Virus record (IMG/VR): IMGVR_UViG_3300027932_000003
Coordinates: 1-34,531 of that record
Source of the DNA: a virus
Strand: one strand, 5' to 3'
DNA: 34,531 nucleotides
How positions within the stretch are numbered: position 1 is the first letter of the stretch; the number at the start of each line of letters is the position of its first letter. Below, in pieces: positions 10,726 to 29,934 of this stretch. Below the pieces are notes generated by a model. That model had not been told where the DNA came from and made no database searches. It was given only the letters and a program-made list of their open reading frames with translations. The position numbers and the translations under genes were made by a program.

Positions 10726-11733
10726 ATGAAAACCGTAATTTTGACTATGAATTATTCATCTATAAGAAATGTTTCAGAAGATATTGCACAAGTTTTACGA
10801 AAAAATGGTGAAATTGTTACAATTTCAACAAATCCATATTTAATTCCACAATCTGATAAATTAATAATTTTTATGCCATTTCATCCTCCATCTCTAAATC
10901 CATATTTGTATGCATTTAGAGAATTTAAAGGTAAGAAGTATTTTTATACAACTTGTGATGGTTTACCTAATACAAATATTGTAAATCAATATCTATTAGA
11001 AAATATAATATTTATACCAAATTCAAAGTTTACAGCTCAGAATTTACAAGAAGTTGGCTTAAATGTTGAATTGCCAGTTTTCCATGGTATAAATTTTGAA
11101 ATTGTAGAAAAAGCTGAACAATTAGCTATTCAATTGAAACAAAAATTAGATGCTGATTTTCCAAATGTTGTAAAGTTTGGAATTGTTTCAGGTTTAACTA
11201 AAAGAAAAAATATGGATCTTATGATAAGAGTTTTTCAAGAAACAAATACTAAAATTCCAGAATTAGCCAAGAAAATCCATTTCTTTGTAATTTCTCATAA
11301 AGCATTTAAAGATTTTGAAGTTCCTGAAAATGTGCATTTTGTTAGTGAATTTGGACTAAATCCTAGAGAATATATATTTGCATTTTATTCAACTATGGAT
11401 TTTGTAATTGTTCCTTCTGGAACTGAGGGCTTTGGACTTCCAGTTTTAGAAAGCATGGCTATGGGAACTCCAGTAATTCACCAATTAATGCCTCCATTTG
11501 ATGAATTTACATCATGGCAATGGAATTTACTAATTAAATCATCAGAAATTGAAGAATATTACGATAAAACGCATGGGCAAAAATGGAGAATTCATAAATT
11601 TGATATTCATGACATGATAAATGCAATATTAATAGCTTCAGAACTTCAAGATAGAGATGAGAGAAGTCAAAATTTAAGAGAATTAGCAAAAAGATACGAT
11701 ATTAATAATTTATATGTTAGATTTTTAGAGTGA
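10726..11733 (+). CDS. GT-B fold glycosyltransferase (GT4-like) (335 aa)
   Basis: SGTEGFGLPVLESMAMGTPVI contains the E-x7-E motif of retaining GT4 enzymes; immediately downstream of the coat gene region. Confidence 0.8.
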   Translation: MKTVILTMNYSSIRNVSEDIAQVLRKNGEIVTISTNPYLIPQSDKLIIFMPFHPPSLNPYLYAFREFKGKKYFYTTCDGLPNTNIVNQYLLENIIFIPNSKFTAQNLQEVGLNVELPVFHGINFEIVEKAEQLAIQLKQKLDADFPNVVKFGIVSGLTKRKNMDLMIRVFQETNTKIPELAKKIHFFVISHKAFKDFEVPENVHFVSEFGLNPREYIFAFYSTMDFVIVPSGTEGFGLPVLESMAMGTPVIHQLMPPFDEFTSWQWNLLIKSSEIEEYYDKTHGQKWRIHKFDIHDMINAILIASELQDRDERSQNLRELAKRYDINNLYVRFLE

Positions 11734-14355: not shown

Positions 14356-15739
14356 TTTTAAAGTTTTTATAGTAGAAAATTGGCTTATATTGTTTAGCTT
14401 TTGTCGATTTTTGAGCTAATTTTATCGAATTTTCAACTTTTGCTTGACCTTGTAATTTCTCTCCAAGTTGTTGAGCAAATTGTAAATCAGCATTTGAAAT
14501 TCCATAAAATGACCATTTTGTCTTCCAATAATTCAAGAAATCAGAATATGATAATGTTCTTTTTCCAGAATTGTAACTATAATTTTGTTGATATGGATAT
14601 CTAGCAATTTCTAGAATTGCTGAAGCTACCATTTTAGCATACCAAATGTTTGAATACTTCTTATTCACAATTTGTTGAACATGTAAGAATTGTTGATATG
14701 TAACTGCATAATTTTCAATTTCTGAGCTATAAGTAATATTTATCCCACCGGGACTTGGATCATAAAGATGTAATTTAAACAAACTCCCAAAAATTGAAAT
14801 TACAGTTTTATCAGCAGTTAAAATTGTTATTAAATCTAATTGTGTAACATTATTAGGATTAAATTCAGGAATTAACATAGCAAAGTCAAGAGGAGTATAA
14901 TCTAATATCATTCCGAAAACATCAGCAAAATTTTGTAAAATCATATTATTCTCAAGTTGAACTTTATAAGTTGGAGAATTTTCAATTTCTGGAGCTAAAA
15001 TACACCTGTCTAACCATCCAACATCAAGGGCAAATCCACTATTAATTATCTCGTTTAAATTGGGAACAAATGAAACTACAAATTTAGCTAAATCTGGAAG
15101 TTGATTATAGTTTAAATTTAATGCATTTAGCAAATCACCAACTCCAGTATTTTGAATATTATTAAGTGAATAATTATCAACATTTGGAATTTGAGTATTT
15201 CCAATTCCTAAAGTTTGTAAGTTAATACTAGTATTTGTAGTTGTTAAGCTATTAAAATATTGTTCTATTTTTTCACATGCTTGATTTCTATTTATAATTG
15301 TATTAGCTGGTTGAAAGACAGAGAGATCAAAATAAGTTTCATCAAAAACGGCTGGTTGATATAAAATTGAGCAAAGATCTACATAATTATCATAAAATTG
15401 TATAAAGTTATTAACAAATTCAAGACCAGAAGTTTGACCATAAATTCCACTTTGACCTAATTGTAGAAAACTAAATGAATTTGTATTTGGATTAAATATT
15501 GAAATTGCTAAATTGTTTAATGATGAAAGTAAAGCTGAAATAATTGTAGCATATGCAATTCCATAATTAGTATTTATACCTGGAGGAATTTGAACATTTT
15601 CAAGTGGAGTTGGAAGAATTGATTCAACTCCAGCGTTAAACATTACAGAAAAAGCTGGAAATGTTTTTCTATTTAGTACTTTTTGATAAAGATGATATTT
15701 CATTTGTGCAATTGATCTTTGTCCTACTTTCCTACCCAT
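14339..15739 (-). CDS. putative minor virion structural protein, N/Q/S/T-rich (about 466 aa)
   Basis: ORF track start 15763 is TTG; first ATG is 15739 with ttttattttGAC about 22 nt upstream; composition and size resemble rudivirus minor structural proteins (from memory). Confidence 0.55.
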   Translation of the reverse strand: MGRKVGQRSIAQMKYHLYQKVLNRKTFPAFSVMFNAGVESILPTPLENVQIPPGINTNYGIAYATIISALLSSLNNLAISIFNPNTNSFSFLQLGQSGIYGQTSGLEFVNNFIQFYDNYVDLCSILYQPAVFDETYFDLSVFQPANTIINRNQACEKIEQYFNSLTTTNTSINLQTLGIGNTQIPNVDNYSLNNIQNTGVGDLLNALNLNYNQLPDLAKFVVSFVPNLNEIINSGFALDVGWLDRCILAPEIENSPTYKVQLENNMILQNFADVFGMILDYTPLDFAMLIPEFNPNNVTQLDLITILTADKTVISIFGSLFKLHLYDPSPGGINITYSSEIENYAVTYQQFLHVQQIVNKKYSNIWYAKMVASAILEIARYPYQQNYSYNSGKRTLSYSDFLNYWKTKWSFYGISNADLQFAQQLGEKLQGQAKVENSIKLAQKSTKAKQYKPIFYYKNFKNVASR

Positions 15740-15873
15740 AATTATTATATTTGTAAAAGTCAAAATAAAAACTTAATTCTAATATACAATATAATGTATA
15801 TCAGTTTTACTCTTTGATCTCATCATATTCAATTCATAAAATATATATTTGTCATAATTTGAGTTACGAATGT

Positions 15874-16332
15874 ATGCAATTACAATTTAGAATAGAAGAA
15901 GCAAAAGATAAAGAATTAATAAAATTTGTAAGAATGTTGATAGATTATTATCATTCTCAAGGAATGCCTTTGGGAGGCGGTGCTGGAAAAAATAGCAGAT
16001 ATTTTATGTATATTGCTAACGACAGTGAGCAAGATTTTATTGTAGCAGTAGCATGGCTCCATGACAATACACCATTTAGATATATAGCTCAAGAATACAA
16101 AATTCCAGATAATAGAAGTTATTTTATTAGAAGAGTTACAAAAACAGTTCCTGGAGATTATGACATTAATTTTCTAATTGATTTAGCTAAGAAATTGAAA
16201 AATGATGGATTTGAAGTACTTTGGACTTTAGGATTTCCAGATCATTCCAACGCTTTATACAAGAAAGCAGGATTTCAAGAAGTTGGGAAAACAAATAGAA
16301 CTGGACATCCAATTTTCATTAAAAAATTATAA
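15874..16332 (+). CDS. hypothetical protein, possible GNAT-like acetyltransferase fold (152 aa)
   Basis: ORF track start 15814 is TTG; ATG 15874 lies about 25 nt after atatatatttGTCATAat. C-terminal NALYKKAGFQEVG resembles GNAT motif B; motif A is not clear. Confidence 0.45.
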   Translation: MQLQFRIEEAKDKELIKFVRMLIDYYHSQGMPLGGGAGKNSRYFMYIANDSEQDFIVAVAWLHDNTPFRYIAQEYKIPDNRSYFIRRVTKTVPGDYDINFLIDLAKKLKNDGFEVLWTLGFPDHSNALYKKAGFQEVGKTNRTGHPIFIKKL

Positions 16333-16608
16333 CTTATGTTTTTTAATCTTATTTGCTATATATACTGATTCTATAATTGAAAGAAGTGTTTCAAGTTGAA
16401 CATCATTATCGATAAGTACTCCAAAAAGATAACCAAAGAAAATAATTAAAGAATCCATACTTATTTTTTCATCTTTGTAGCTTTCTAAAAGATCATAAAA
16501 AGCATATTCTAGATAACTTACTTGTTTTTCTATAATTTTAAGTGAGTTTTCATCTGGATGAAAAGTTTCTTTAAAAACTTCTATTATTTTCTGTAAACCG
16601 GGATCCAT
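16327..16608 (-). CDS. hypothetical protein (93 aa)
   Basis: ATG ORF, convergent with 15874..16332. Confidence 0.5.
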   Translation of the reverse strand: MDPGLQKIIEVFKETFHPDENSLKIIEKQVSYLEYAFYDLLESYKDEKISMDSLIIFFGYLFGVLIDNDVQLETLLSIIESVYIANKIKKHKL

Positions 16609-16680
16609 ATATCATCAATATAAAAATTTTTATATGACAAATTTAAACATATATATGTCATAATTTTTAAGTTTAATTTG

Positions 16681-17064
16681 ATGAATTTTAGACAATCTGG
16701 AAAATATTATGAATATAAGACACTTAATTATCTTGAAAAACATGGCTATAAAGCTATAAGAATTCCAGTTTCTGGAACTGGAAAACAGCCAATTCCAGAT
16801 ATTATAGCAATTAAGGATAATACAATTTTTCCAATTGAAGTTAAATCAACTTCACAAAATTATGTTGTAATTGATAATTTTCAAATTGATAAATTGTTTA
16901 AGTTCTGTGAGATATTCAATTTTTGTAATTGTAAACCGTTAATACTAGTTCATTATAAAAAATATAAAAATGTCATAATATATAATTTGAGTCAAGATGT
17001 CAGAACAAAAGAAAAAATCAAATTTGCCTTCAGAGCTAACAGCAAAACTGTATTTAGCACTTGA
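16681..17064 (+). CDS. Holliday junction resolvase, Hjc-type (127 aa)
   Basis: ORF track start 16678 is TTG; ATG at 16681. RIPVSGTGKQPIPDIIAIKDNTIFPIEVKS shows the SG ... PD-IIA ... EVK nuclease core of archaeal Hjc; promoter atatatatGTCATAattt. Confidence 0.75.
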   Translation: MNFRQSGKYYEYKTLNYLEKHGYKAIRIPVSGTGKQPIPDIIAIKDNTIFPIEVKSTSQNYVVIDNFQIDKLFKFCEIFNFCNCKPLILVHYKKYKNVIIYNLSQDVRTKEKIKFAFRANSKTVFST

Positions 17065-17206
17065 CGATTTAACTATGGCATTAGCTACTTGTGATAGTGA
17101 AGAAATTAGAAAGAGTGAAGTTTTTCAAAAAGCTCTAGAAGTTGTGAAAATTGTAAAAGAAATGAGAAATGCTAAAATAAAATCTGATGAAGAAGAAAAA
17201 GCCTAA
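16997..17206 (+). CDS. hypothetical helical protein (69 aa), overlapping the 3' end of the resolvase gene
   Basis: ATG ORF in another frame overlapping 16681..17064 by 68 nt; plausible composition; uncertain. Confidence 0.3.
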   Translation: MSEQKKKSNLPSELTAKLYLALDDLTMALATCDSEEIRKSEVFQKALEVVKIVKEMRNAKIKSDEEEKA

Positions 17207-20828: not shown

Positions 20829-21644
20829 ATGAGCGTTAATTTGTGTCATTATGAGGCAGAAAATATAAGTTATAAAGATTTAGAAAATCTTCAAGGTATG
20901 ATATATTATGAAATAAAATATGATGGTACACATATATGTTTAAAATATGAAAATGAACTAAAAATTAATACTAGAAAAGATATACCTCATGATAAAACAT
21001 TTCAGAATTTGTTTTATCAAGTTCCAAATATTGATGAAATTATAAAATATATAAAAGAACATAACAATTATATAATACATGGGGAACTTATACATAAAAA
21101 GACATCAGCACTACAAATCCATACAAATGAAACTCCAGAATTTATAATTTATGATGTCTTTGACAAAGAGAACAACAGATATTTAAGTCCGCTTGAAGTT
21201 GATAGTGAAATTTACGAATGGTATCCAGAAATTTGTTTAGATTTAGATGATTTACTTGATATTATAACTAAAGAAAAACTTGAGGGCTTAGTAGCTAAAA
21301 TCTATAATCCGAAATTTGCAAATTGTAAAGAAGGCAAAAACTTCAACTTATGCGTTTATAAATACAAACCGTATTTTTCAACTTTAGGAGTAATATTTAA
21401 GCCCGTTAGAAAAGAAATTGATGTTAGACAATTAGCGTTTCTTCTCGGCGAAATAGATAATGATTTAAAGAATAATAAAGATGAATGGTATAATAATCAT
21501 CCAGATTTGCTAAGATTCTTACTAAATAATAAAGATAAAATACTTCAACTTTTGCAAAATAAAAACTTTATACTACAAGTTGAGAAAGAAACACATTTAA
21601 ACATTAAGAAAATTGAAGAATACATTAAAAATTTCAAGAGATAA
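20829..21644 (+). CDS. hypothetical protein (271 aa)
   Basis: ATG ORF; promoter aaataaatttGTCATAtt. Confidence 0.6.
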   Translation: MSVNLCHYEAENISYKDLENLQGMIYYEIKYDGTHICLKYENELKINTRKDIPHDKTFQNLFYQVPNIDEIIKYIKEHNNYIIHGELIHKKTSALQIHTNETPEFIIYDVFDKENNRYLSPLEVDSEIYEWYPEICLDLDDLLDIITKEKLEGLVAKIYNPKFANCKEGKNFNLCVYKYKPYFSTLGVIFKPVRKEIDVRQLAFLLGEIDNDLKNNKDEWYNNHPDLLRFLLNNKDKILQLLQNKNFILQVEKETHLNIKKIEEYIKNFKR

Positions 21645-24456: not shown

Positions 24457-24933
24457 CTATAATTTACAAAATACAAATTCTCTATTATCATCAGTTATAA
24501 AAGTTAGAATTGTTCCATATAATTTTTTCATTAACTCAAAGCGGTTTTCAGTCCAGTCATGAATAGCAATACAATATTGTTTATACTTTTGTAATTCTTC
24601 AATTTTCAGATTCTTTTCACAGCCTTCACAATCCATAACTAAAATGTCAGTGTCAGGATATTGATTTCCAGTCCATTCCCCATTTATCTCAACTTTATCA
24701 CAAATATTAAATTCTTTACAAACTTTTTCCTTAAATCTCTTGTTTAACTCATCACTTTTTTCAAAACCAATTACTTTTTTAGCATTCTTAAGAAGAAAAT
24801 ACAAAGCTGAACTTCCACAATCATTTCCGATTATCGTAATTGTCTTATCTTTTACGTCTAATTTTCCATAAGCTAAATCAAATTCATGCCAATAGCAACA
24901 TTCCAATTTACAAAAATAATCTTTATAATCCAT
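24457..24933 (-). CDS. SAM-dependent methyltransferase, FkbM-like (158 aa)
   Basis: TIIGNDCGSSALYFL ... KKVIGFEKS resembles FkbM-family motif I and the acidic end of beta-2; DILVMDCEGCE further on. Confidence 0.5.
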   Translation of the reverse strand: MDYKDYFCKLECCYWHEFDLAYGKLDVKDKTITIIGNDCGSSALYFLLKNAKKVIGFEKSDELNKRFKEKVCKEFNICDKVEINGEWTGNQYPDTDILVMDCEGCEKNLKIEELQKYKQYCIAIHDWTENRFELMKKLYGTILTFITDDNREFVFCKL

Positions 24934-24953: not shown

Positions 24954-25883
24954 TTAGGAACTAATAACTTCAAATAATGCATAAACTGTACATTTTCCAG
25001 TTGCCCAGGCATAAATATTTGAAGGATTATTTACATGAATTTCTATTGAATCATTTTGTAAAATCGGGAAGTTATTATATAGATTATTGCCAATATAAAC
25101 GATATAATTACTGAGATTTTGGAGAATTATTCTTACAGTTTCTATGGATGGGCCTGTGTACAAAGGTGAAGGAGTAGTAGAAACATCTAATTGTAGACCT
25201 TCTATAGTTGGTGGACTTAAGTATAAACCAAGTTTATTAATTGTATTTGTCAAACCGACAGTTGCTAAATATACATATGTCAAAGTATAAGCTAAAGAAT
25301 CAGCAACAAAATAAATAGCACTTTGTAACGAAATTCCTAATCTCTTAGCTATTGAATTTATAGTTTCATAAAATGAAATATAGAAATTCTGTAAATCTTC
25401 TTTTATAATTGTCCTAGATTGTTCAATATTTGAAATTAAATAATTAACAACATTATAAATTGTTTCATATAGAGCAATTGTATCTTTCTCTAAAATTGAA
25501 GTGGCAGTCGGAACGGCAACTACAATTTTTTCATAAATTTCTTCTGGTAATTTAACAATTGAATAATAAAGTTGTTGATTTGAGTATAATATTGAATTTA
25601 TTTGTTGATTTGCAGTTGCTATAAAACCTGCAATGTATATTGGATCAAGTTCAGTTAGCACAGGCTGACCAGAAACGTAAACCTCATCATAGAAAAATCC
25701 AGAATCTGCAGTAATTGAATTTGGAACTGTAAGATTACCGTTTTTCAAAATTGAAGTAACTGCATTTCCGCCAGTTTCATAAAGCTGAATTAGCAAAAGT
25801 GATGCAGTATTCCACATTGAAGATGTTAATCTCTGAAACGGTGACGCAAGTAATTCGCTAATTGAAGTATATGTAACGCTCAT
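24954..25883 (-). CDS. hypothetical protein (309 aa)
   Basis: ATG ORF; no motif recognised. Confidence 0.6.
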   Translation of the reverse strand: MSVTYTSISELLASPFQRLTSSMWNTASLLLIQLYETGGNAVTSILKNGNLTVPNSITADSGFFYDEVYVSGQPVLTELDPIYIAGFIATANQQINSILYSNQQLYYSIVKLPEEIYEKIVVAVPTATSILEKDTIALYETIYNVVNYLISNIEQSRTIIKEDLQNFYISFYETINSIAKRLGISLQSAIYFVADSLAYTLTYVYLATVGLTNTINKLGLYLSPPTIEGLQLDVSTTPSPLYTGPSIETVRIILQNLSNYIVYIGNNLYNNFPILQNDSIEIHVNNPSNIYAWATGKCTVYALFEVISS

Positions 25884-26729: not shown

Positions 26730-27812
26730 ATGAGTGGTGATATTTTATTGCAAACTCCAATTTATTACGTTTATCCACAACATCATGATGTTTCTTTTAA
26801 GTTTGTAGCAAAAGAACATATAAAAATGCTAAAAGAAAAATATACAGTTTACGAAATTCCTGCTTTATCATTTTATCAATTTACTCCTTTCAAATATCCA
26901 ATTTCAATTATTCATCCATTCTTTTATTCAATGTGGCATTGGGGTAACGTTGAATTTTCATTCTTTGAACAATATAGATCTAAAGTTAGTCAAATAATAG
27001 GAGTTGAAGTAGCTGACAGTGATAGAATTTCAGAAAAATTTATAGATTATGCAAATAATTATGCAGATAGACTAATTGGAAATTCTGAATGGACATTAAA
27101 CGCTTTTAAAAATTCTGGACTAAAAATTCCAATTTTTAAAGTTGTTCATAATTTTAATGAGAGATTATTGGCGAAAAATGATGAATTAAAAGTTGATGAA
27201 CAAGTTAAATATATTGAAAAAGTAAAGAAAGAGAAAAATATAAAACTAGTAATGATATCGCTTTGGCATTCTGATTACAGAAAAGGAGCTGATTTATTTC
27301 ACGTAATTGTAAAAGAAATACAAAAAGAAAGAGATGATATTTATTTTCTAGTCAAATCAGGCGGGCCGAGGACAGATTTTCAAGACCTCAAAATGTTTAA
27401 CCTAACAGGAAATACAGATTTTGATAATATCGTAAAAATGTATAGAATTTCTGACTTGTATTTACTAACTTCAAGAGGCGGAAGTTTTGAATTAAACGGT
27501 TTAGAAGCTTTTGTATCAAAAATTCCAGTTGTAGCAACTAAAGGAGGAGCATGGCAAGAGTATTTTCCTTCACAATTGAAAGATTTATTAATTGATAGTT
27601 GTGATTATCCAACAGTTTTACCAGGAAATCCAATTCATATAGGAAAAGGAGTGGAAATGTGCATAAATGACGCTATAGATAAAATATTAGAAGTTTTAGA
27701 TAAATTAGATGAATATAAGGCAAAAATTGAGGAGAACTATAATTTTTGGCTAGAAAATTTTAGTTATGAAACTGTAAAAAAACAATTGTTTAACACATTA
27801 GAAAAATCTTAA
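26730..27812 (+). CDS. putative GT-B glycosyltransferase (360 aa)
   Basis: TSRGGSFELNGLEAFVSKIPVVAT resembles the C-terminal sugar-donor region of GT4 enzymes; aaggacgtggt upstream of the ATG. Confidence 0.55.
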   Translation: MSGDILLQTPIYYVYPQHHDVSFKFVAKEHIKMLKEKYTVYEIPALSFYQFTPFKYPISIIHPFFYSMWHWGNVEFSFFEQYRSKVSQIIGVEVADSDRISEKFIDYANNYADRLIGNSEWTLNAFKNSGLKIPIFKVVHNFNERLLAKNDELKVDEQVKYIEKVKKEKNIKLVMISLWHSDYRKGADLFHVIVKEIQKERDDIYFLVKSGGPRTDFQDLKMFNLTGNTDFDNIVKMYRISDLYLLTSRGGSFELNGLEAFVSKIPVVATKGGAWQEYFPSQLKDLLIDSCDYPTVLPGNPIHIGKGVEMCINDAIDKILEVLDKLDEYKAKIEENYNFWLENFSYETVKKQLFNTLEKS

Positions 27813-27838: not shown

Positions 27839-29035
27839 ATGGAATTTAAAAGAAAAAGTTCAGGCATAATAAAAAGTTTTAGCTCATTAGACATTTTTTC
27901 TATAAACCTACTTTACATGGGAATTTTAAGCGGTATAAGTTATCCTCTTTTTGTCTCAAGTCTTCTAAAATCTGTAAATTTACTATTTGCAATTTTGATA
28001 GGTGCAATTTTTGGAATTCCGTTACTTGCAATGTATTATTTACTGACTAAAAAAATTCCGCTTAATGGAGGAGATTATGCGTACATTAGATCTTCATTTT
28101 CTCCAAAATTCTATACAGTTTTTGGAATTTCGCTCTGGTTAATTTATGTATTTTCAGCACCAGTTTTATCAAACCTTGTATTGTTAAATTTCAATATTCC
28201 AATATTCGATAAGTTTTTAATTTCAGAACTATTACTTGGGACTGCGTTACTTAGTGTTAGCAAAAAAACAATTTATGCTTATATTGTTGACGCTATCGCA
28301 ATTTTACAAATAATCGTTTCGCTAATCTTGCCAATTTCAAGTTTCCATTTTCAAATTCAAAATTTTACAATATCCAATACTCTATTATCGGCATTATTAT
28401 TTGATTTATCTATGTTTTTATTTCTAAATGCAATTAGTTACATAGCAGGAGAAACAAAAAACATAAACAAAAATGCGAAAATCGGATATTTTGTAAGTTA
28501 TTTAGTAGTTACAATTTTAGCAGTATTGGACAGTTATTCAAATCTAAATATATTATTTCTACTAATGCCGATATGGTTTATGAGTTATATTTTTGTTACT
28601 TCTATGATTCAGAGTAGACTAGTTCAAAATTTAGCATTTGATAAAATCTTACCTGAAAAATTTGCAAAAATAACGCCTAATGCTTTACTGTTAATCTTTA
28701 TCGCTGATACAATTACAAACGTTTTAGAAAATCTTCTAAATTTTACAATTTCATTTGGTCTTGATGGCCTGTTATTTATTTTCTGGAACTTTATAATTGT
28801 TAGTTTTGCATTTCTGAAATTGACAAATAAAAAACTATTATTTTCAATAGTAATGATTAGTCTAATTTTACAGATCTTCTTATTCTTTTATTTAGGATTA
28901 CAAAATAGCGTATTTTATAATTTTGTAATTGAGGGAAACATACTATATACAATATTAAGAATATTGATAATGCCAATTGTTGGAGGAATTATTTACTTAT
29001 TGAGGAGAAAAGTGATAAATGTTGAATTAAAATGA
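27839..29035 (+). CDS. polytopic membrane protein, possible flippase/transporter (398 aa)
   Basis: At least 10 hydrophobic segments by eye; sits between a glycosyltransferase gene and 29032..29934, overlapping the latter by 4 nt. Confidence 0.6.
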   Translation: MEFKRKSSGIIKSFSSLDIFSINLLYMGILSGISYPLFVSSLLKSVNLLFAILIGAIFGIPLLAMYYLLTKKIPLNGGDYAYIRSSFSPKFYTVFGISLWLIYVFSAPVLSNLVLLNFNIPIFDKFLISELLLGTALLSVSKKTIYAYIVDAIAILQIIVSLILPISSFHFQIQNFTISNTLLSALLFDLSMFLFLNAISYIAGETKNINKNAKIGYFVSYLVVTILAVLDSYSNLNILFLLMPIWFMSYIFVTSMIQSRLVQNLAFDKILPEKFAKITPNALLLIFIADTITNVLENLLNFTISFGLDGLLFIFWNFIIVSFAFLKLTNKKLLFSIVMISLILQIFLFFYLGLQNSVFYNFVIEGNILYTILRILIMPIVGGIIYLLRRKVINVELK

Positions 29036-29934
29036 AATTGATTTTTGGATTAAGTTCAACATTATCATATATTTTAAAAACAAATTTTCCAATTTTAGTT
29101 AATCAACTAAGATTTAAAAGAAAAACATGGAAAAATGAAACATGGATTGATAGTGGCGGATATCAAATTATAATGCATAATCTAAAAATTTCTGTAAATG
29201 ATGTCTTGCAAAAGTATAAAAGTGTTAATGCTTACGCATTTTTTTCGCTTGATATTCCTAGCGTTTTTTCGCCAATTGATAAACGAAACTTTGAATATTT
29301 CGAATATCTATATACGAAAATTGAGTATATAGAAAAGATTATACCAGTTTTACATATTTATTCACTTCAAGATATAGATGAAGCAATTGATTTTTATAAA
29401 CAATACAGTTATTATTTTGCAATTGGTGGTATAATGACTTCTAGCAAAATGAAAGTTTTACAATATACATTTCCATGGGTTTATTATATAAAAAGAAAAG
29501 TTCCATATCTCCATATTTTAGGCATGTCATCTCCATATTTTTTACAAATTTTTAATAATATGCAAAGCATGGATACCGCAATTTGTTCAACAATTTCAAC
29601 ATTTAAAGAAATAATTTGGTTTGATAGTTCTAGGAGATATGTTGGAAATATGAAAACAAAAAGGGAAAGATATAAAATTACAAAAGAAGAAAAAGAACAA
29701 TTATTTGAATTTTTAGACAAACATAACTTTCAATTTAACTATGATTTAAGTAATAGAAATATTCTAGAACTTATAAATGCATATATGTTATTATATAATA
29801 ATTGGAAAATTAAGAATAAATATACAGAATATGCAGAAAAACTTAGAAAAATGGGACTAGATAGTTTGACAAGTGAGTTAATTAGAAATTATAAAATTGC
29901 AAATGAAATATTAAAACAGAAAAGAGAAAAATAG
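29032..29934 (+). CDS. hypothetical protein (300 aa)
   Basis: ATG ORF translationally coupled to the membrane protein gene. Confidence 0.55.
   Translation: MKLIFGLSSTLSYILKTNFPILVNQLRFKRKTWKNETWIDSGGYQIIMHNLKISVNDVLQKYKSVNAYAFFSLDIPSVFSPIDKRNFEYFEYLYTKIEYIEKIIPVLHIYSLQDIDEAIDFYKQYSYYFAIGGIMTSSKMKVLQYTFPWVYYIKRKVPYLHILGMSSPYFLQIFNNMQSMDTAICSTISTFKEIIWFDSSRRYVGNMKTKRERYKITKEEKEQLFEFLDKHNFQFNYDLSNRNILELINAYMLLYNNWKIKNKYTEYAEKLRKMGLDSLTSELIRNYKIANEILKQKREK

What the first reader, a model, noticed from the sequence alone, without database searches (positions are those of the whole stretch)
15874..16332. Possible GNAT-like acetyltransferase, alongside an FkbM-like methyltransferase at 24457..24933
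The C-terminus NALYKKAGFQEVG resembles GNAT motif B, but motif A is unclear, so this is tentative. Virus-encoded acetyl- or methyl-transferases could modify host chromatin proteins, virion proteins or nucleic acids, a possible route to evading host restriction or interference.
Basis: inference. Interest (0 to 1): 0.45.

Follow-up and report, generated by a model that had tools for sequence, protein, structure and literature searches.

The report
Rudivirus GNAT-fold acyltransferase and methyltransferase genes
The flagged ORF is a real, conserved core gene of rod-shaped archaeal viruses (the SIRV2 ORF154 family) whose predicted fold is clearly GNAT acyltransferase. The second ORF is a class I SAM methyltransferase. 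Both were already annotated this way in related viruses, and their substrates remain unknown.

Summary
The window is a Yellowstone-type Sulfolobus islandicus rod-shaped virus (Usarudivirus, about 88-95% nt identity to SIRV8).

**GNAT gene, 15874..16332 (+), 152 aa**
- It is the ortholog of SIRV2 ORF154 (70% aa identity). It is under strong purifying selection and has a conserved TATA-like block upstream.
Motif A (Q/RxxGxG/A) really is missing; the loop reads KTVPGDY.
- The best structural match is phage Mu Mom, the glycyl-tRNA-dependent DNA-modifying GNAT, but only by a small margin. Profile comparison finds no specific kinship with Mom, and Mom's essential HTH-like insertion is absent.
- The weak sequence signals point to acetyl-CoA GNATs instead (3h4q E=0.008).
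- Relatives are already annotated 'putative acetyltransferase', and the literature lists a GCN5-family acetyltransferase as a gene shared among rudiviruses.

**Methyltransferase gene, 24457..24933 (-)**
- It has a class I Rossmann methyltransferase fold (pLDDT 96) and is already annotated as a SAM-dependent methyltransferase.
- The FkbM likeness is sub-threshold only.
- It lies 8 kb from the GNAT gene on the opposite strand, so the two are not linked.

**Verdict:** ordinary, already-known annotation with unknown substrates. A Mom-like or DNA-tailoring role is a low-probability but testable alternative.

The parts
15874..16332 (+). Gene for a 152-aa GNAT-fold protein. It is the ortholog of SIRV2 ORF154 (gp34 by my count) and SIRV8 ORF39, and belongs to phrog_8069.
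15835..15856 (+). Conserved A/T-rich TATA-like block (CATAAAATATATATTTGTCATA), centred about 30 nt upstream of the ATG. It is the putative archaeal promoter of a leaderless or short-leader mRNA.
   Evidence: The block is conserved between the window, SIRV8 and SIRV2 although the flanks diverge. Its function as a promoter is inferred from known Sulfolobus promoter geometry and was not tested.
15949..15954 (+). Codons for Y26-H27 at the C-terminal end of helix alpha1. Both are invariant in the 40-sequence family alignment.
   Evidence: Invariant columns. Helix 13-26 in the model. In MAFFT alignments H27 pairs with Mom H58, a residue whose mutation strongly reduces Mom activity. This equivalence is tentative.
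16120..16161 (+). Strand beta4 (Y83-F-I-R86-R87-V-T-K-T) plus the beta4-alpha3 loop (V-P93-G94-D-Y96). This is the position of GNAT motif A, which is degenerate here. The R86-R87 pair is the most conserved feature of the extended family.
   Evidence: F84, I85, R86, R87 and P93 are invariant. R86 and R87 are >=90% conserved across 59 sequences including distant members. Strand 82-90 and helix 97-110 come from the model. HMMER aligns this segment in register with beta4 and motif A of the GNAT 3h4q and of glyphosate N-acetyltransferase.
   Evidence: W117, T118, G120, N126, F134 and G138 are invariant. The weak matches of GNAT models fall here.
24457..24933 (-). Gene for a 158-aa class I (Rossmann-fold) SAM-dependent methyltransferase. 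It is the ortholog of the SIRV2 and SIRV8 'SAM-dependent methyltransferase' and belongs to phrog_5108.
   Evidence: ORF. phrog_5108 at 6e-82. 128 homologues, several named methyltransferase by NCBI. AF2 pLDDT 96, pTM 0.91. Foldseek gives 1294 PDB hits at E<=1e-3; the top hits are METTL5, PH1948 and DIMT1.
24808..24834 (-). Methyltransferase motif I (I34-I-G36-N-D38-C-G40-S-S42), the glycine-rich SAM-binding loop after beta1. E58 at the end of beta2 is the expected ribose-binding acidic residue.
   Evidence: G36, D38, C39, G40, S41 and E58 are invariant. Strands 31-35 and 53-57 come from the model. The assignment follows the general class I methyltransferase motif scheme and is an inference.
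24616..24648 (-). Methyltransferase beta4 and the motif-IV position (D96-I-L-V-M-D101-C-E103-G-C105-E106). This is the FkbM-type DxEGxE-like motif, and here it contains a CxxC.
   Evidence: D101, C102, E103, C105 and E106 are invariant. It is the only stretch matched by TIGR01444 fkbM_fam (residues 92-108, E=0.065).

Best explanation
The ORF at 15874..16332 is a functional gene found in nearly all sequenced Rudiviridae. It encodes a small, single-domain enzyme of the GNAT (Gcn5-related N-acyltransferase) fold.

The conserved residues line the usual GNAT active-site cleft between beta4 and beta5: the R86-R87 pair on beta4, P93-G94 in the cofactor loop, W117-T118-G120 on beta5, H124-S125-N126 and Y129 at alpha4, and Y26-H27 at the end of alpha1. 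The protein is therefore most likely catalytically active.

The most probable chemistry is transfer of an acyl group, most likely acetyl from acetyl-CoA, to an amine of a substrate that carries negative charge. The invariant Arg pair suggests a phosphate- or carboxylate-bearing acceptor, such as a nucleotide-sugar, a nucleic acid or an acidic protein segment. The cofactor loop is atypical, so the donor is inferred, not shown, and the acceptor is unknown.

The ORF at 24457..24933 is an independent, separately transcribed class I SAM-dependent methyltransferase with an FkbM-type DxEGxE-like motif. It is conserved in rudiviruses and occurs in at least one filamentous Sulfolobales virus. Its substrate is also unknown.

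What is shown: gene reality, conservation, both folds, and the presence or absence of the motifs. What is inferred: acetyl-CoA use, catalytic activity, and an anionic acceptor.
For: **Gene reality and conservation**
-, with dN/dS 0.09-0.25.
- The literature lists a GCN5-family acetyltransferase and a SAM-dependent methyltransferase among the genes shared by rudiviruses (bioRxiv 10.1101/2020.01.16.907410).
- SIRVs share 30 core genes under purifying selection (PMC5454432).

**Fold**
- The AF2 model has pLDDT 92 with order b1-a1-b2-b3-(extra helix)-b4-a3-b5-a4-b6-b7.
- Foldseek finds 146 PDB hits at E<=1e-3, and the 50 listed are GNAT-fold proteins.

**Sequence signals towards acetyl-CoA GNATs**
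- The extended family profile matches PDB 3h4q 'putative acetyltransferase' at E=0.0078, in register from b2 to b6. It also matches glyphosate N-acetyltransferase at 0.09 and Gcn5 at 0.17.
- Pfam Acetyltransf_1 and FR47 each match 5 of 40 members.
- NCBIfam ArsN1a matches 7 of 40 members.

**Catalytic competence**
- The conserved residues sit on b4, b5 and the a4 N-terminus.

**Methyltransferase**
-.
Against: - No curated GNAT model reaches its threshold. The best is 15.1 bits against a 20.7-bit cut-off.
- Motif A, the pyrophosphate-binding Q/RxxGxG/A loop, is not recognisable. An Asp and an aromatic residue occupy positions that are normally Gly/Ala.
- I found no biochemical or genetic data on SIRV2 ORF154/gp34.
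Confidence: 0.6

Rival explanations
1. Mom-like or otherwise non-CoA acyltransferase acting on nucleic acid. The protein would use an aminoacyl-tRNA or another activated ester as donor. It would modify viral DNA, either directly at a base or by tailoring a 7-deazaguanine base inserted by the virus's TGT/DpdA-like enzyme, and the SAM methyltransferase could be a second tailoring enzyme.
For: - Motif A is degenerate, as it is in Mom.
- A conserved Arg on beta4 (R86/R87 versus the essential R111 of Mom), a His at the end of alpha1 (H27 versus H58) and a Tyr in alpha4 (Y129 versus Y159) occupy comparable positions.
- Both proteins have a 17-18-residue beta3-beta4 insertion headed by an invariant Pro.
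- The window encodes a TGT/DpdA-like protein (phrog_887, 9e-65).
- Twelve Ligamenvirales viruses were listed among viruses encoding a DpdA/DpdA2 homolog or a G+ synthesis gene. The paper's passage on hosts of DpdA-only viruses notes that Sulfolobus encodes the full G+ pathway (PMC6884629).
Against: - Profile-profile comparison with the Mom family gives probability about 2%, and only an out-of-register match.
- There is no hit to Pfam PF25680 (Mom) in any of 40 members, and Mom never appears in the HMM searches of the PDB.
- The HTH-like insertion that is essential for Mom activity is absent: the b6-b7 connection is only 6 residues.
- Mom S124 and R151 have no conserved counterparts.
- A beta3-beta4 insertion of similar length and an Arg on beta4 also occur in acetyltransferase-type GNATs: the insertion in 3h4q, and a beta4 Arg in both 3h4q and glyphosate N-acetyltransferase.
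Confidence: 0.12
2. Sugar or nucleotide-sugar N-acetyltransferase in virion glycan biosynthesis. It would work with the glycosyltransferases rudiviruses share (two group-1 glycosyltransferases were detected in this window) and with the FkbM-like methyltransferase acting as a glycan O-methyltransferase. This is a specific acceptor choice within the acetyl-CoA model.
For: - Rudiviruses share three glycosyltransferases, the GNAT and the methyltransferase.
- Two group-1 glycosyltransferases lie in this window, at 10726..11733 and 26730..27812. The second is about 1.8 kb from the methyltransferase gene.
- The invariant Arg pair would suit an NDP-sugar diphosphate (inference).
- From my own knowledge, not tested here: FkbM-family enzymes often methylate sugars, and GNATs such as PseH and WecD acetylate NDP-amino-sugars.
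Against: - The window contains no recognisable amino-sugar biosynthesis genes.
- The GNAT gene is not adjacent to any glycosyltransferase.
- FkbM membership is itself sub-threshold.
- The methyltransferase's best structural neighbours are RNA adenine methyltransferases, not sugar methyltransferases.
Confidence: 0.12
3. Catalytically inactive GNAT-fold protein that serves as a binding or structural module, for example by binding CoA, a nucleotide or a protein partner.
For: Motif A is degenerate and no curated acetyltransferase model reaches threshold. The family is tiny and isolated, with only 32 representatives among 1.84 billion at E<=1e-3.
Against: The invariant residues cluster on the elements that form the GNAT active-site cleft (b4, b5, the a4 N-terminus and the a1 C-terminus) rather than on the surface or only in the hydrophobic core. 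Purifying selection is strong.
Confidence: 0.1
4. Anti-defence acetyltransferase, such as an AcrVA5-like enzyme that acetylates a host Cas protein or another immune protein.
For: There is precedent for a GNAT anti-CRISPR; reviews surfaced, and the AcrVA5 mechanism is from my own knowledge. Two homologues lie next to CRISPR-related DNA: one inside a host type I-A array and one next to virus-borne RAMP/Csf3 genes.
Against: The gene is a central, syntenic core gene under purifying selection, whereas variable genes accumulate at rudiviral termini and known rudiviral Acrs lie near the genome ends (own knowledge). The CRISPR associations are single cases, and one of them may be a recombination relic.
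Confidence: 0.05

Closest known systems
SIRV2 ORF154 (gp34 by my count) / rudiviral 'putative acetyltransferase' family (phrog_8069; the MRV1, SSRV1, ARV3 and SBRV1 annotations)
   Same: This is the direct ortholog: 70% aa identity to SIRV2 ORF154 and 96% to the SIRV8/9 proteins. It has the same length and sits in the same position between the ~480-aa ORF488 homologue and the Holliday junction resolvase. Relatives are named 'putative acetyltransferase' in GenBank and 'GCN5-family acetyltransferase' in Baquero et al..
   Different: Yellowstone-type SIRVs, including this window, have a 93-aa minus-strand ORF (16327..16608) between this gene and the resolvase. In SIRV2 the two genes are only 6 nt apart. 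Usarudivirus proteins also carry a short insertion in the b2-b3 turn.
Acetyl-CoA-dependent GNAT acetyltransferases (for example PDB 3h4q, 2oh1, RimI 5isv, glyphosate N-acetyltransferase 2bsw)
   Same: Same fold and strand order. Motif B is recognisable. The match to 3h4q is in register at E=0.008, and 3h4q also has a long b3-b4 insertion and an 'IHRL' beta4 corresponding to 'FIRR' here.
   Different: Motif A (Q/RxxGxG/A) is replaced by K-T-x-P-G-D-Y. Helix alpha2 is replaced by a Gly-rich, low-confidence loop (residues 27-41). No curated family threshold is reached.
Phage Mu Mom (PDB 8bv8; Pfam PF25680), the glycyl-tRNA-dependent DNA adenine-modifying GNAT
   Different: There is no detectable sequence kinship (hhalign about 2%, no PF25680 hit). 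This protein lacks the essential HTH-like insertion (Mom residues 175-209), the basic N-terminal tail, and counterparts of S124 and R151. It is 152 aa against Mom's 241 aa.
Ligamenvirales SAM-dependent methyltransferase (phrog_5108; SIRV2 and SIRV8 orthologs), and the FkbM family (TIGR01444) and METTL5/PH1948-type methyltransferases
   Same: 82% aa identity to the SIRV2 and SIRV8 proteins named methyltransferase. Class I Rossmann fold with the Gly-rich motif I and the acidic residue at the end of beta2. The DxEGxE-like motif at beta4 matches the FkbM model.
   Different: It lies below every curated threshold: 13.7 bits against 37.7 for TIGR01444, and no Pfam Methyltransf_21 hit. It lacks the (D/N)PP(Y/F) motif of the adenine-N6 methyltransferases that top the structure search. 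It is unusually Cys-rich, with 10 Cys of which 6 are invariant, including a CxxC in the catalytic loop.

Membership tests
GNAT superfamily (fold level) | Mixed alpha/beta fold with strand order b1-a1-(a2)-b2-b3-b4-a3-b5-a4-b6-b7 | tested here: met
GNAT superfamily (acetyl-CoA-dependent acetyltransferases) | Motif A: the pyrophosphate-binding loop Q/R-x-x-G-x-G/A between b4 and a3 | tested here: not met
   The loop is K90-T-V-P93-G94-D95-Y96 (family consensus K-T-x-P-G-D-Y). No register gives Gly at position 4 together with Gly/Ala at position 6. HMMER has to place an indel here when aligning to 3h4q.
GNAT superfamily (acetyl-CoA-dependent acetyltransferases) | Motif B (b5-a4-b6, with the ...N..lY.k.GF..vG pattern) | tested here: met
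   W117-T-L-G...H-S-N126-A-L-Y129-K-K-A-G-F134-Q-E-V-G138 is conserved. It is the segment matched by ArsN1a, Acetyltransf_1, Gcn5 and glyphosate N-acetyltransferase.
Pfam Acetyltransf_1 (PF00583) / FR47 (PF08445) | Score at or above the curated gathering threshold | tested here: not met
   The window protein gives no hit at E<=1. Each model is hit weakly by 5 of 40 members (best E 0.023-0.029). Acetyltransf_1 scores 15.1 bits against a 20.7-bit cut-off.
GNAT acetyltransferases | Binding of acetyl-CoA and acetyl transfer | not testable with these tools
   This needs ITC, thermal shift or activity assays, or a co-structure. The Mom study notes that GNAT co-substrates cannot be read from structure.
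Mom family (Pfam PF25680; adenine-modifying, Gly-tRNA-dependent) | Sequence membership (Pfam model or profile-profile match) | tested here: not met
   No PF25680 hit in 40 members at E<=1. hhalign against a 28-sequence Mom alignment gives probability 1.7-2.5% and an out-of-register match.
Mom family | HTH-like insertion between b6 and b7 (Mom residues ~175-209), essential for activity | tested here: not met
   b6 spans 135-139 and b7 spans 146-151, so the connection is only 6 residues and the protein ends at 152.
Mom family | Catalytic residues R111, S124, D149 and R151 (plus H58, Y59 and Y159) | tested here: inconclusive
   Candidate counterparts exist for R111 (R86/R87), H58 (H27), Y159 (Y129) and partly D149 (D123, which is variable). 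None exist for S124 or R151. Without a residue-level structural superposition the equivalences are tentative.
Class I SAM-dependent methyltransferases (the 24457..24933 protein) | Rossmann-like seven-strand fold with a Gly-rich motif I and an acidic residue at the end of b2 | tested here: met
   AF2 pLDDT 96. Foldseek gives 1294 PDB hits at E<=1e-3, topped by METTL5 at 3.5e-9. G36-x-D38-x-G40 and E58 are invariant.
FkbM family methyltransferases (TIGR01444 / Pfam PF05050) | Score at or above the curated cut-off of the family model | tested here: not met
   TIGR01444 gives the window protein E=0.065 and 13.7 bits against a 37.7-bit cut-off, covering residues 92-108 only. 17 of 35 members give weak hits, the best at E=9.7e-4. 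No member hits PF05050 at E<=1.
FkbM family methyltransferases | D-x-E-G-x-E motif after b4 | tested here: met
   D101-C-E103-G-C105-E106 is invariant in 35 sequences, and it is the stretch aligned to the TIGR01444 profile. That this motif characterises FkbM enzymes is from my own knowledge.

The most novel reading that the evidence does not exclude
The rudiviral GNAT may not be a protein acetyltransferase. It could instead be a minimal Mom-like, nucleic-acid-directed acyltransferase, using a non-CoA donor such as an aminoacyl-tRNA or acylating an aminomethyl-7-deazaguanine. Together with the virus's DpdA/TGT-like enzyme and the SAM methyltransferase it would then build a DNA hypermodification in rod-shaped archaeal viruses. 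My evidence does not exclude this reading. Mom is the top structural neighbour, motif A is missing, an invariant Arg pair sits on beta4, and a DpdA-like gene is present in the same genome.
Probability: 0.1. Interest if true: 0.75.

Novelty: already known. Interest (0 to 1): 0.25.

Why it matters
Taken at face value, this confirms an existing annotation. Rudiviruses carry a GNAT-fold gene and a SAM methyltransferase gene among their shared genes, and this window holds the usual copies.

Neither enzyme has a known substrate, even though rudiviruses are the best-studied archaeal viruses. Knowing what these enzymes modify (virion glycans, host chromatin or immune proteins, or viral DNA) would fill a gap in a very small core proteome.

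Three observations make one specific question directly testable with existing SIRV2 genetics, namely whether rudiviral DNA is chemically modified:
- the cofactor loop is atypical;
- Mom is the nearest solved structure;
- a DpdA-like transglycosylase is encoded in the same genome.

Tried and rejected
1. **TTG start at 15814 (172 aa).** Rejected. The conserved promoter-like block lies downstream of it, and homologues and the SIRV8 annotation start at the ATG.
2. **Direct family assignment of the window proteins.** Pfam, NCBIfam and PDB sequence searches gave nothing significant. The de novo TIM-barrel hits for the methyltransferase profile are repeat artefacts.
4. **Conserved synteny with the upstream ~480-aa ORF488 homologue in distant family members.** The 412-aa and 439-aa neighbours on contigs L005 and L006 show no similarity to it.
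5. **AlphaFold DB (afdb50) fold search.** The library was unavailable.
6. **Literature on ORF154, P154 or gp34 function, acetylation in SIRV2 infection, and 7-deazaguanine in rod-shaped viruses.** Nothing relevant was found in the held library.
7. **tRNA genes in the window, as a possible link to a tRNA-dependent enzyme.** None were found.
8. **A functional link between the two flagged genes.** Rejected on position: they are 8 kb apart, on opposite strands, with several genes between them.
Full report
**Origin of the window.** The window has about 25% G+C. Region 15500-17200 is 95.5% identical to Sulfolobus islandicus rod-shaped virus 8, and 25 kb of the window aligns to SIRV8 at 88% identity over 91% of its length. 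The window is therefore an unlisted Yellowstone-type Usarudivirus of the Rudiviridae.

**The observation.** A + strand ORF ends at 16332.
- SIRV8 annotates the ATG form as ORF39, and all homologues align from this Met.
- An A/T-rich block, CATAAAATATATATTTGTCATA (15835-15856), is conserved between the window, SIRV8 and SIRV2 while its surroundings diverge.
- This block is centred about 30 nt upstream of the ATG. That is the geometry expected for a Sulfolobus TATA box driving a leaderless or short-leader mRNA (inference). It lies downstream of the TTG, so 15874 is the start.
- The gene is real. It has 57 homologues at E<=0.01 in 5.8 billion proteins and is present in 38 virus records, all Rudiviridae: SIRV1-11, ARV2, ARV3, MRV1, SSRV1, SBRV1 and SRV.
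- dN/dS is 0.09 against SIRV8 and 0.25 against SIRV2.
- It is the ortholog of SIRV2 ORF154 (70% identity). Counting from gp29 = ORF156, that is gp34.

**Fold.** Direct searches with the single protein find nothing in Pfam, and nothing significant in NCBIfam or in PDB sequences. PHROGs places it in phrog_8069, 'unknown function'.
- An AlphaFold2 model built on a 40-sequence alignment is confident (pLDDT 92, pTM 0.86).
- Its elements are b1 4-10, a1 13-26, a Gly-rich low-confidence loop 27-41, b2 42-49, b3 54-63, an extra helix 66-74, b4 82-90, a3 97-110, b5 115-119, a4 127-131, b6 135-139 and b7 146-151.
- This is GNAT topology, with a2 replaced by a loop and an insertion between b3 and b4.
- Foldseek against the PDB returns 146 hits at E<=1e-3, and all 50 listed are GNAT-fold proteins, including RimI, PaiA and AAC(6')-Ib.

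**Motifs.**
- W117-T-L-G ... H124-S-N126-A-L-Y129-K-K-A-G-F134-Q-E-V-G138 is the most conserved block.
- It is the part matched, weakly, by ArsN1a (residues 101-144, E=0.009), by Acetyltransf_1 (profile positions 80-116 of 116 in homologue P0047), and by Gcn5 and glyphosate N-acetyltransferase.

The b4-a3 loop is K-T-V-P-G-D-Y (consensus K-T-x-P-G-D-Y), and it cannot be fitted to Q/R-x-x-G-x-G/A.

The most conserved feature of the whole family, including its most distant members, is an Arg-Arg pair on b4 (F-I-R86-R87). Y26 and a Gly of the a1-b2 loop are also conserved.

**How isolated the family is.** A profile search of 1.84 billion representative proteins finds only 32 at E<=1e-3.
- The distant members sit on short, ORFan-rich, virus-like metagenomic contigs.
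- Adding them to the profile raises the best PDB sequence match to 3h4q_A 'putative acetyltransferase' (E=0.0078), in register from b2 to b6.
- 3h4q has a b3-b4 insertion of similar length and an 'IHRL' b4 strand aligned to 'FIRR'.
- Glyphosate N-acetyltransferase (E=0.09, 'QLRG' on b4) and Gcn5 (E=0.17) follow.
- These are borderline values, but they are consistent and all point to GNAT acetyltransferases.

**The Mom lead.**
- Mom has recently been shown to transfer glycine from Gly-tRNA(Gly) to N6 of adenine in dsDNA. Its key residues are H58, Y59, R111, S124, D149, R151 and Y159, and it has an essential HTH-like insertion at residues 175-209 (PMC13219725).
- By inspection, the rudiviral protein has a His at the end of a1 (H27), the Arg pair on b4, a Tyr in a4 (Y129) and a 17-18-residue b3-b4 insertion headed by an invariant Pro. 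Mom has the same features.

Every membership test nevertheless fails:
- no PF25680 hit in any of 40 members;
- hhalign probability about 2%, with only an out-of-register 'WLHDxxP' match;
- no HTH-like insertion, because b6 and b7 are joined by 6 residues;
- no counterparts of S124 or R151.

**Most likely mechanism.** The conserved residues lie on b4, b5, the a4 N-terminus and the a1 C-terminus, which are the walls of the GNAT active-site cleft. Selection is strongly purifying. An active enzyme is therefore more likely than a decayed fold.
- The weak sequence signals favour acetyl-CoA-type GNATs, so acetyl (or another acyl) transfer from CoA to an amine is the best guess at about 0.6.
- The invariant Arg pair suggests an anionic acceptor. 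Candidates include NDP-amino-sugars for virion glycans, because rudiviruses share three glycosyltransferases and two are detected in this window. Other candidates are nucleic acids and acidic protein segments.
- None of this is shown. I found no experimental data on ORF154/gp34.
- Published SIRV2 knock-outs removed only accessory genes, leaving a genome of SIRV core genes only. As a gene present in all SIRV records, gp34 was presumably retained, but the paper does not mention it.

**The methyltransferase.** ORF 24457..24933 (-) encodes 158 aa.
- It falls in phrog_5108 'SAM-dependent methyltransferase' (6e-82) and has 128 homologues. These include SIRV2, SIRV8, SRV, SMRV1 and one Sulfolobales filamentous virus, several of them named methyltransferase.
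- The AF2 model (pLDDT 96) has the class I Rossmann methyltransferase fold.
- Foldseek gives 1294 PDB hits at E<=1e-3, led by METTL5, PH1948, DIMT1 and TrmK/TrmM.
- Motif I (G36-x-D38-x-G40) and the acidic E58 after b2 are invariant.
- After b4 the protein has D101-C-E-G-C-E106 rather than the (D/N)PP(Y/F) of adenine-N6 methyltransferases.
- This stretch is the only one matched by TIGR01444 fkbM_fam: window E=0.065 and 13.7 bits against a 37.7-bit cut-off, weak hits in 17 of 35 members, best E 9.7e-4.
- Pfam Methyltransf_21 is never hit.
- 'FkbM-like' is thus a fair description of a motif, not a membership.
- The gene is 8 kb from the GNAT gene, on the other strand, with several genes between them. 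Nothing links the two beyond both being shared rudiviral genes.

**Comparison with what is known.** GenBank records of MRV1, SSRV1, ARV3 and SBRV1 already call the GNAT ortholog 'putative acetyltransferase'. Baquero et al. list a 'GCN5-family acetyltransferase' and a 'SAM-dependent methyltransferase' among the genes shared by rudiviruses. The finding therefore re-derives an existing annotation from raw sequence. My additions are:
- fold-level confirmation with confident models;
- the explicit failure of motif A and of all curated thresholds;
- the extreme isolation of the family;
- Mom as the nearest solved structure.

**Verdict.**
Both folds are right, but acetyl-CoA use, FkbM membership, any linkage between the genes and a role in evasion are untested or unsupported.
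- Novelty: already known.
- Interest: 0.25.
- The most novel reading not excluded is a Mom-like or DNA-tailoring acyltransferase working with the DpdA-like enzyme encoded at 29032..29934. I give it a probability of about 0.1 and an interest of 0.75 if true.

Noticed in passing
L009/L012 (JGI 3300005860 contig Ga0080004_1126968) 1-2400; also L010: A homologue of the GNAT-like gene (P0056, 49% identity, 58% G+C) lies inside a CRISPR array. Two degenerate 25-nt repeats (CTTTCAATTCTTTCTGAGTTGCATC type) lie upstream of it, and 16 regular repeats follow about 470 nt downstream. Next to the array is a complete type I-A locus (cas6, cas4, cas2, cas1, csa1, csa3, csa4, cas3). Only the gene itself resembles viral DNA. 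The same arrangement appears on a second JGI contig, with a 1-nt length difference. It could be a viral gene captured in the trailer part of a host array, or an assembly path through spacers.
   Followed up: partly
L011 (ENA ERZ27248007 contig k141_299992) 5001-8488: On an 18.6-kb rudivirus-like contig that also has a 1287-aa protein and a glycosyltransferase, the GNAT homologue P0042 is followed on the same strand by two small ORFs, a RAMP protein (PF03787), a Csf3-like protein (PF27782) and a PAPS-reductase-like protein (PF01507). These look like virus-borne type IV-like Cas genes next to a possible nucleic-acid or sulfur-modification enzyme.
   Followed up: no
window 29032..29934 (+) and 27839..29035 (+): A 300-aa TGT/DpdA-like protein (phrog_887 queuine tRNA-ribosyltransferase, E=9e-65) overlaps by 4 nt the end of a 398-aa permease-like gene (weak AA_permease_2 hit, 1.6e-5). 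Hutinet et al. 2019 counted 12 Ligamenvirales viruses among those encoding a DpdA/DpdA2 homolog or a G+ synthesis gene, and noted that Sulfolobus hosts have the full G+ pathway. Rudiviral DNA might therefore carry 7-deazaguanines, and the coupled permease could import the base.
   Followed up: partly
window 20829..21644 (+): A 271-aa protein matches Pfam RNA_ligase (1.9e-11) and DNA_ligase_A_M (1.1e-6). It belongs to phrog_12949 (unknown function). This is a nucleotidyltransferase/ligase-like gene just downstream of the 1058-aa minor capsid protein gene.
   Followed up: no
window 24954..25883 (-): The 309-aa gene immediately upstream of the methyltransferase gene on the same strand appears, by position, to correspond to a gene annotated 'putative protein acetyl transferase' in SIRV isolate V3 (OM401712). 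Pfam finds nothing for it, and PHROGs places it in an unknown-function family (phrog_7221). That annotation looks unsupported and could be confused with the true GNAT-fold gene.
   Followed up: partly
window 24457..24933 (-): The methyltransferase has 10 cysteines in 158 residues. Six are invariant across 35 homologues (C12, C39, C72, C78, C102, C105), including a CxxC inside the catalytic-loop motif DCEGCE and a Cx5C. They may form a metal site or the intracellular disulfides typical of hyperthermophile virus proteins.
   Followed up: no
window 16327..16608 (-): A 93-aa minus-strand ORF (phrog_12149) overlaps the 3' end of the GNAT gene by 6 nt and separates it from the Holliday junction resolvase gene (16678..17064, Pfam Hjc 2e-18). 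In SIRV2 the GNAT ortholog and the resolvase gene are only 6 nt apart on the same strand.
   Followed up: no
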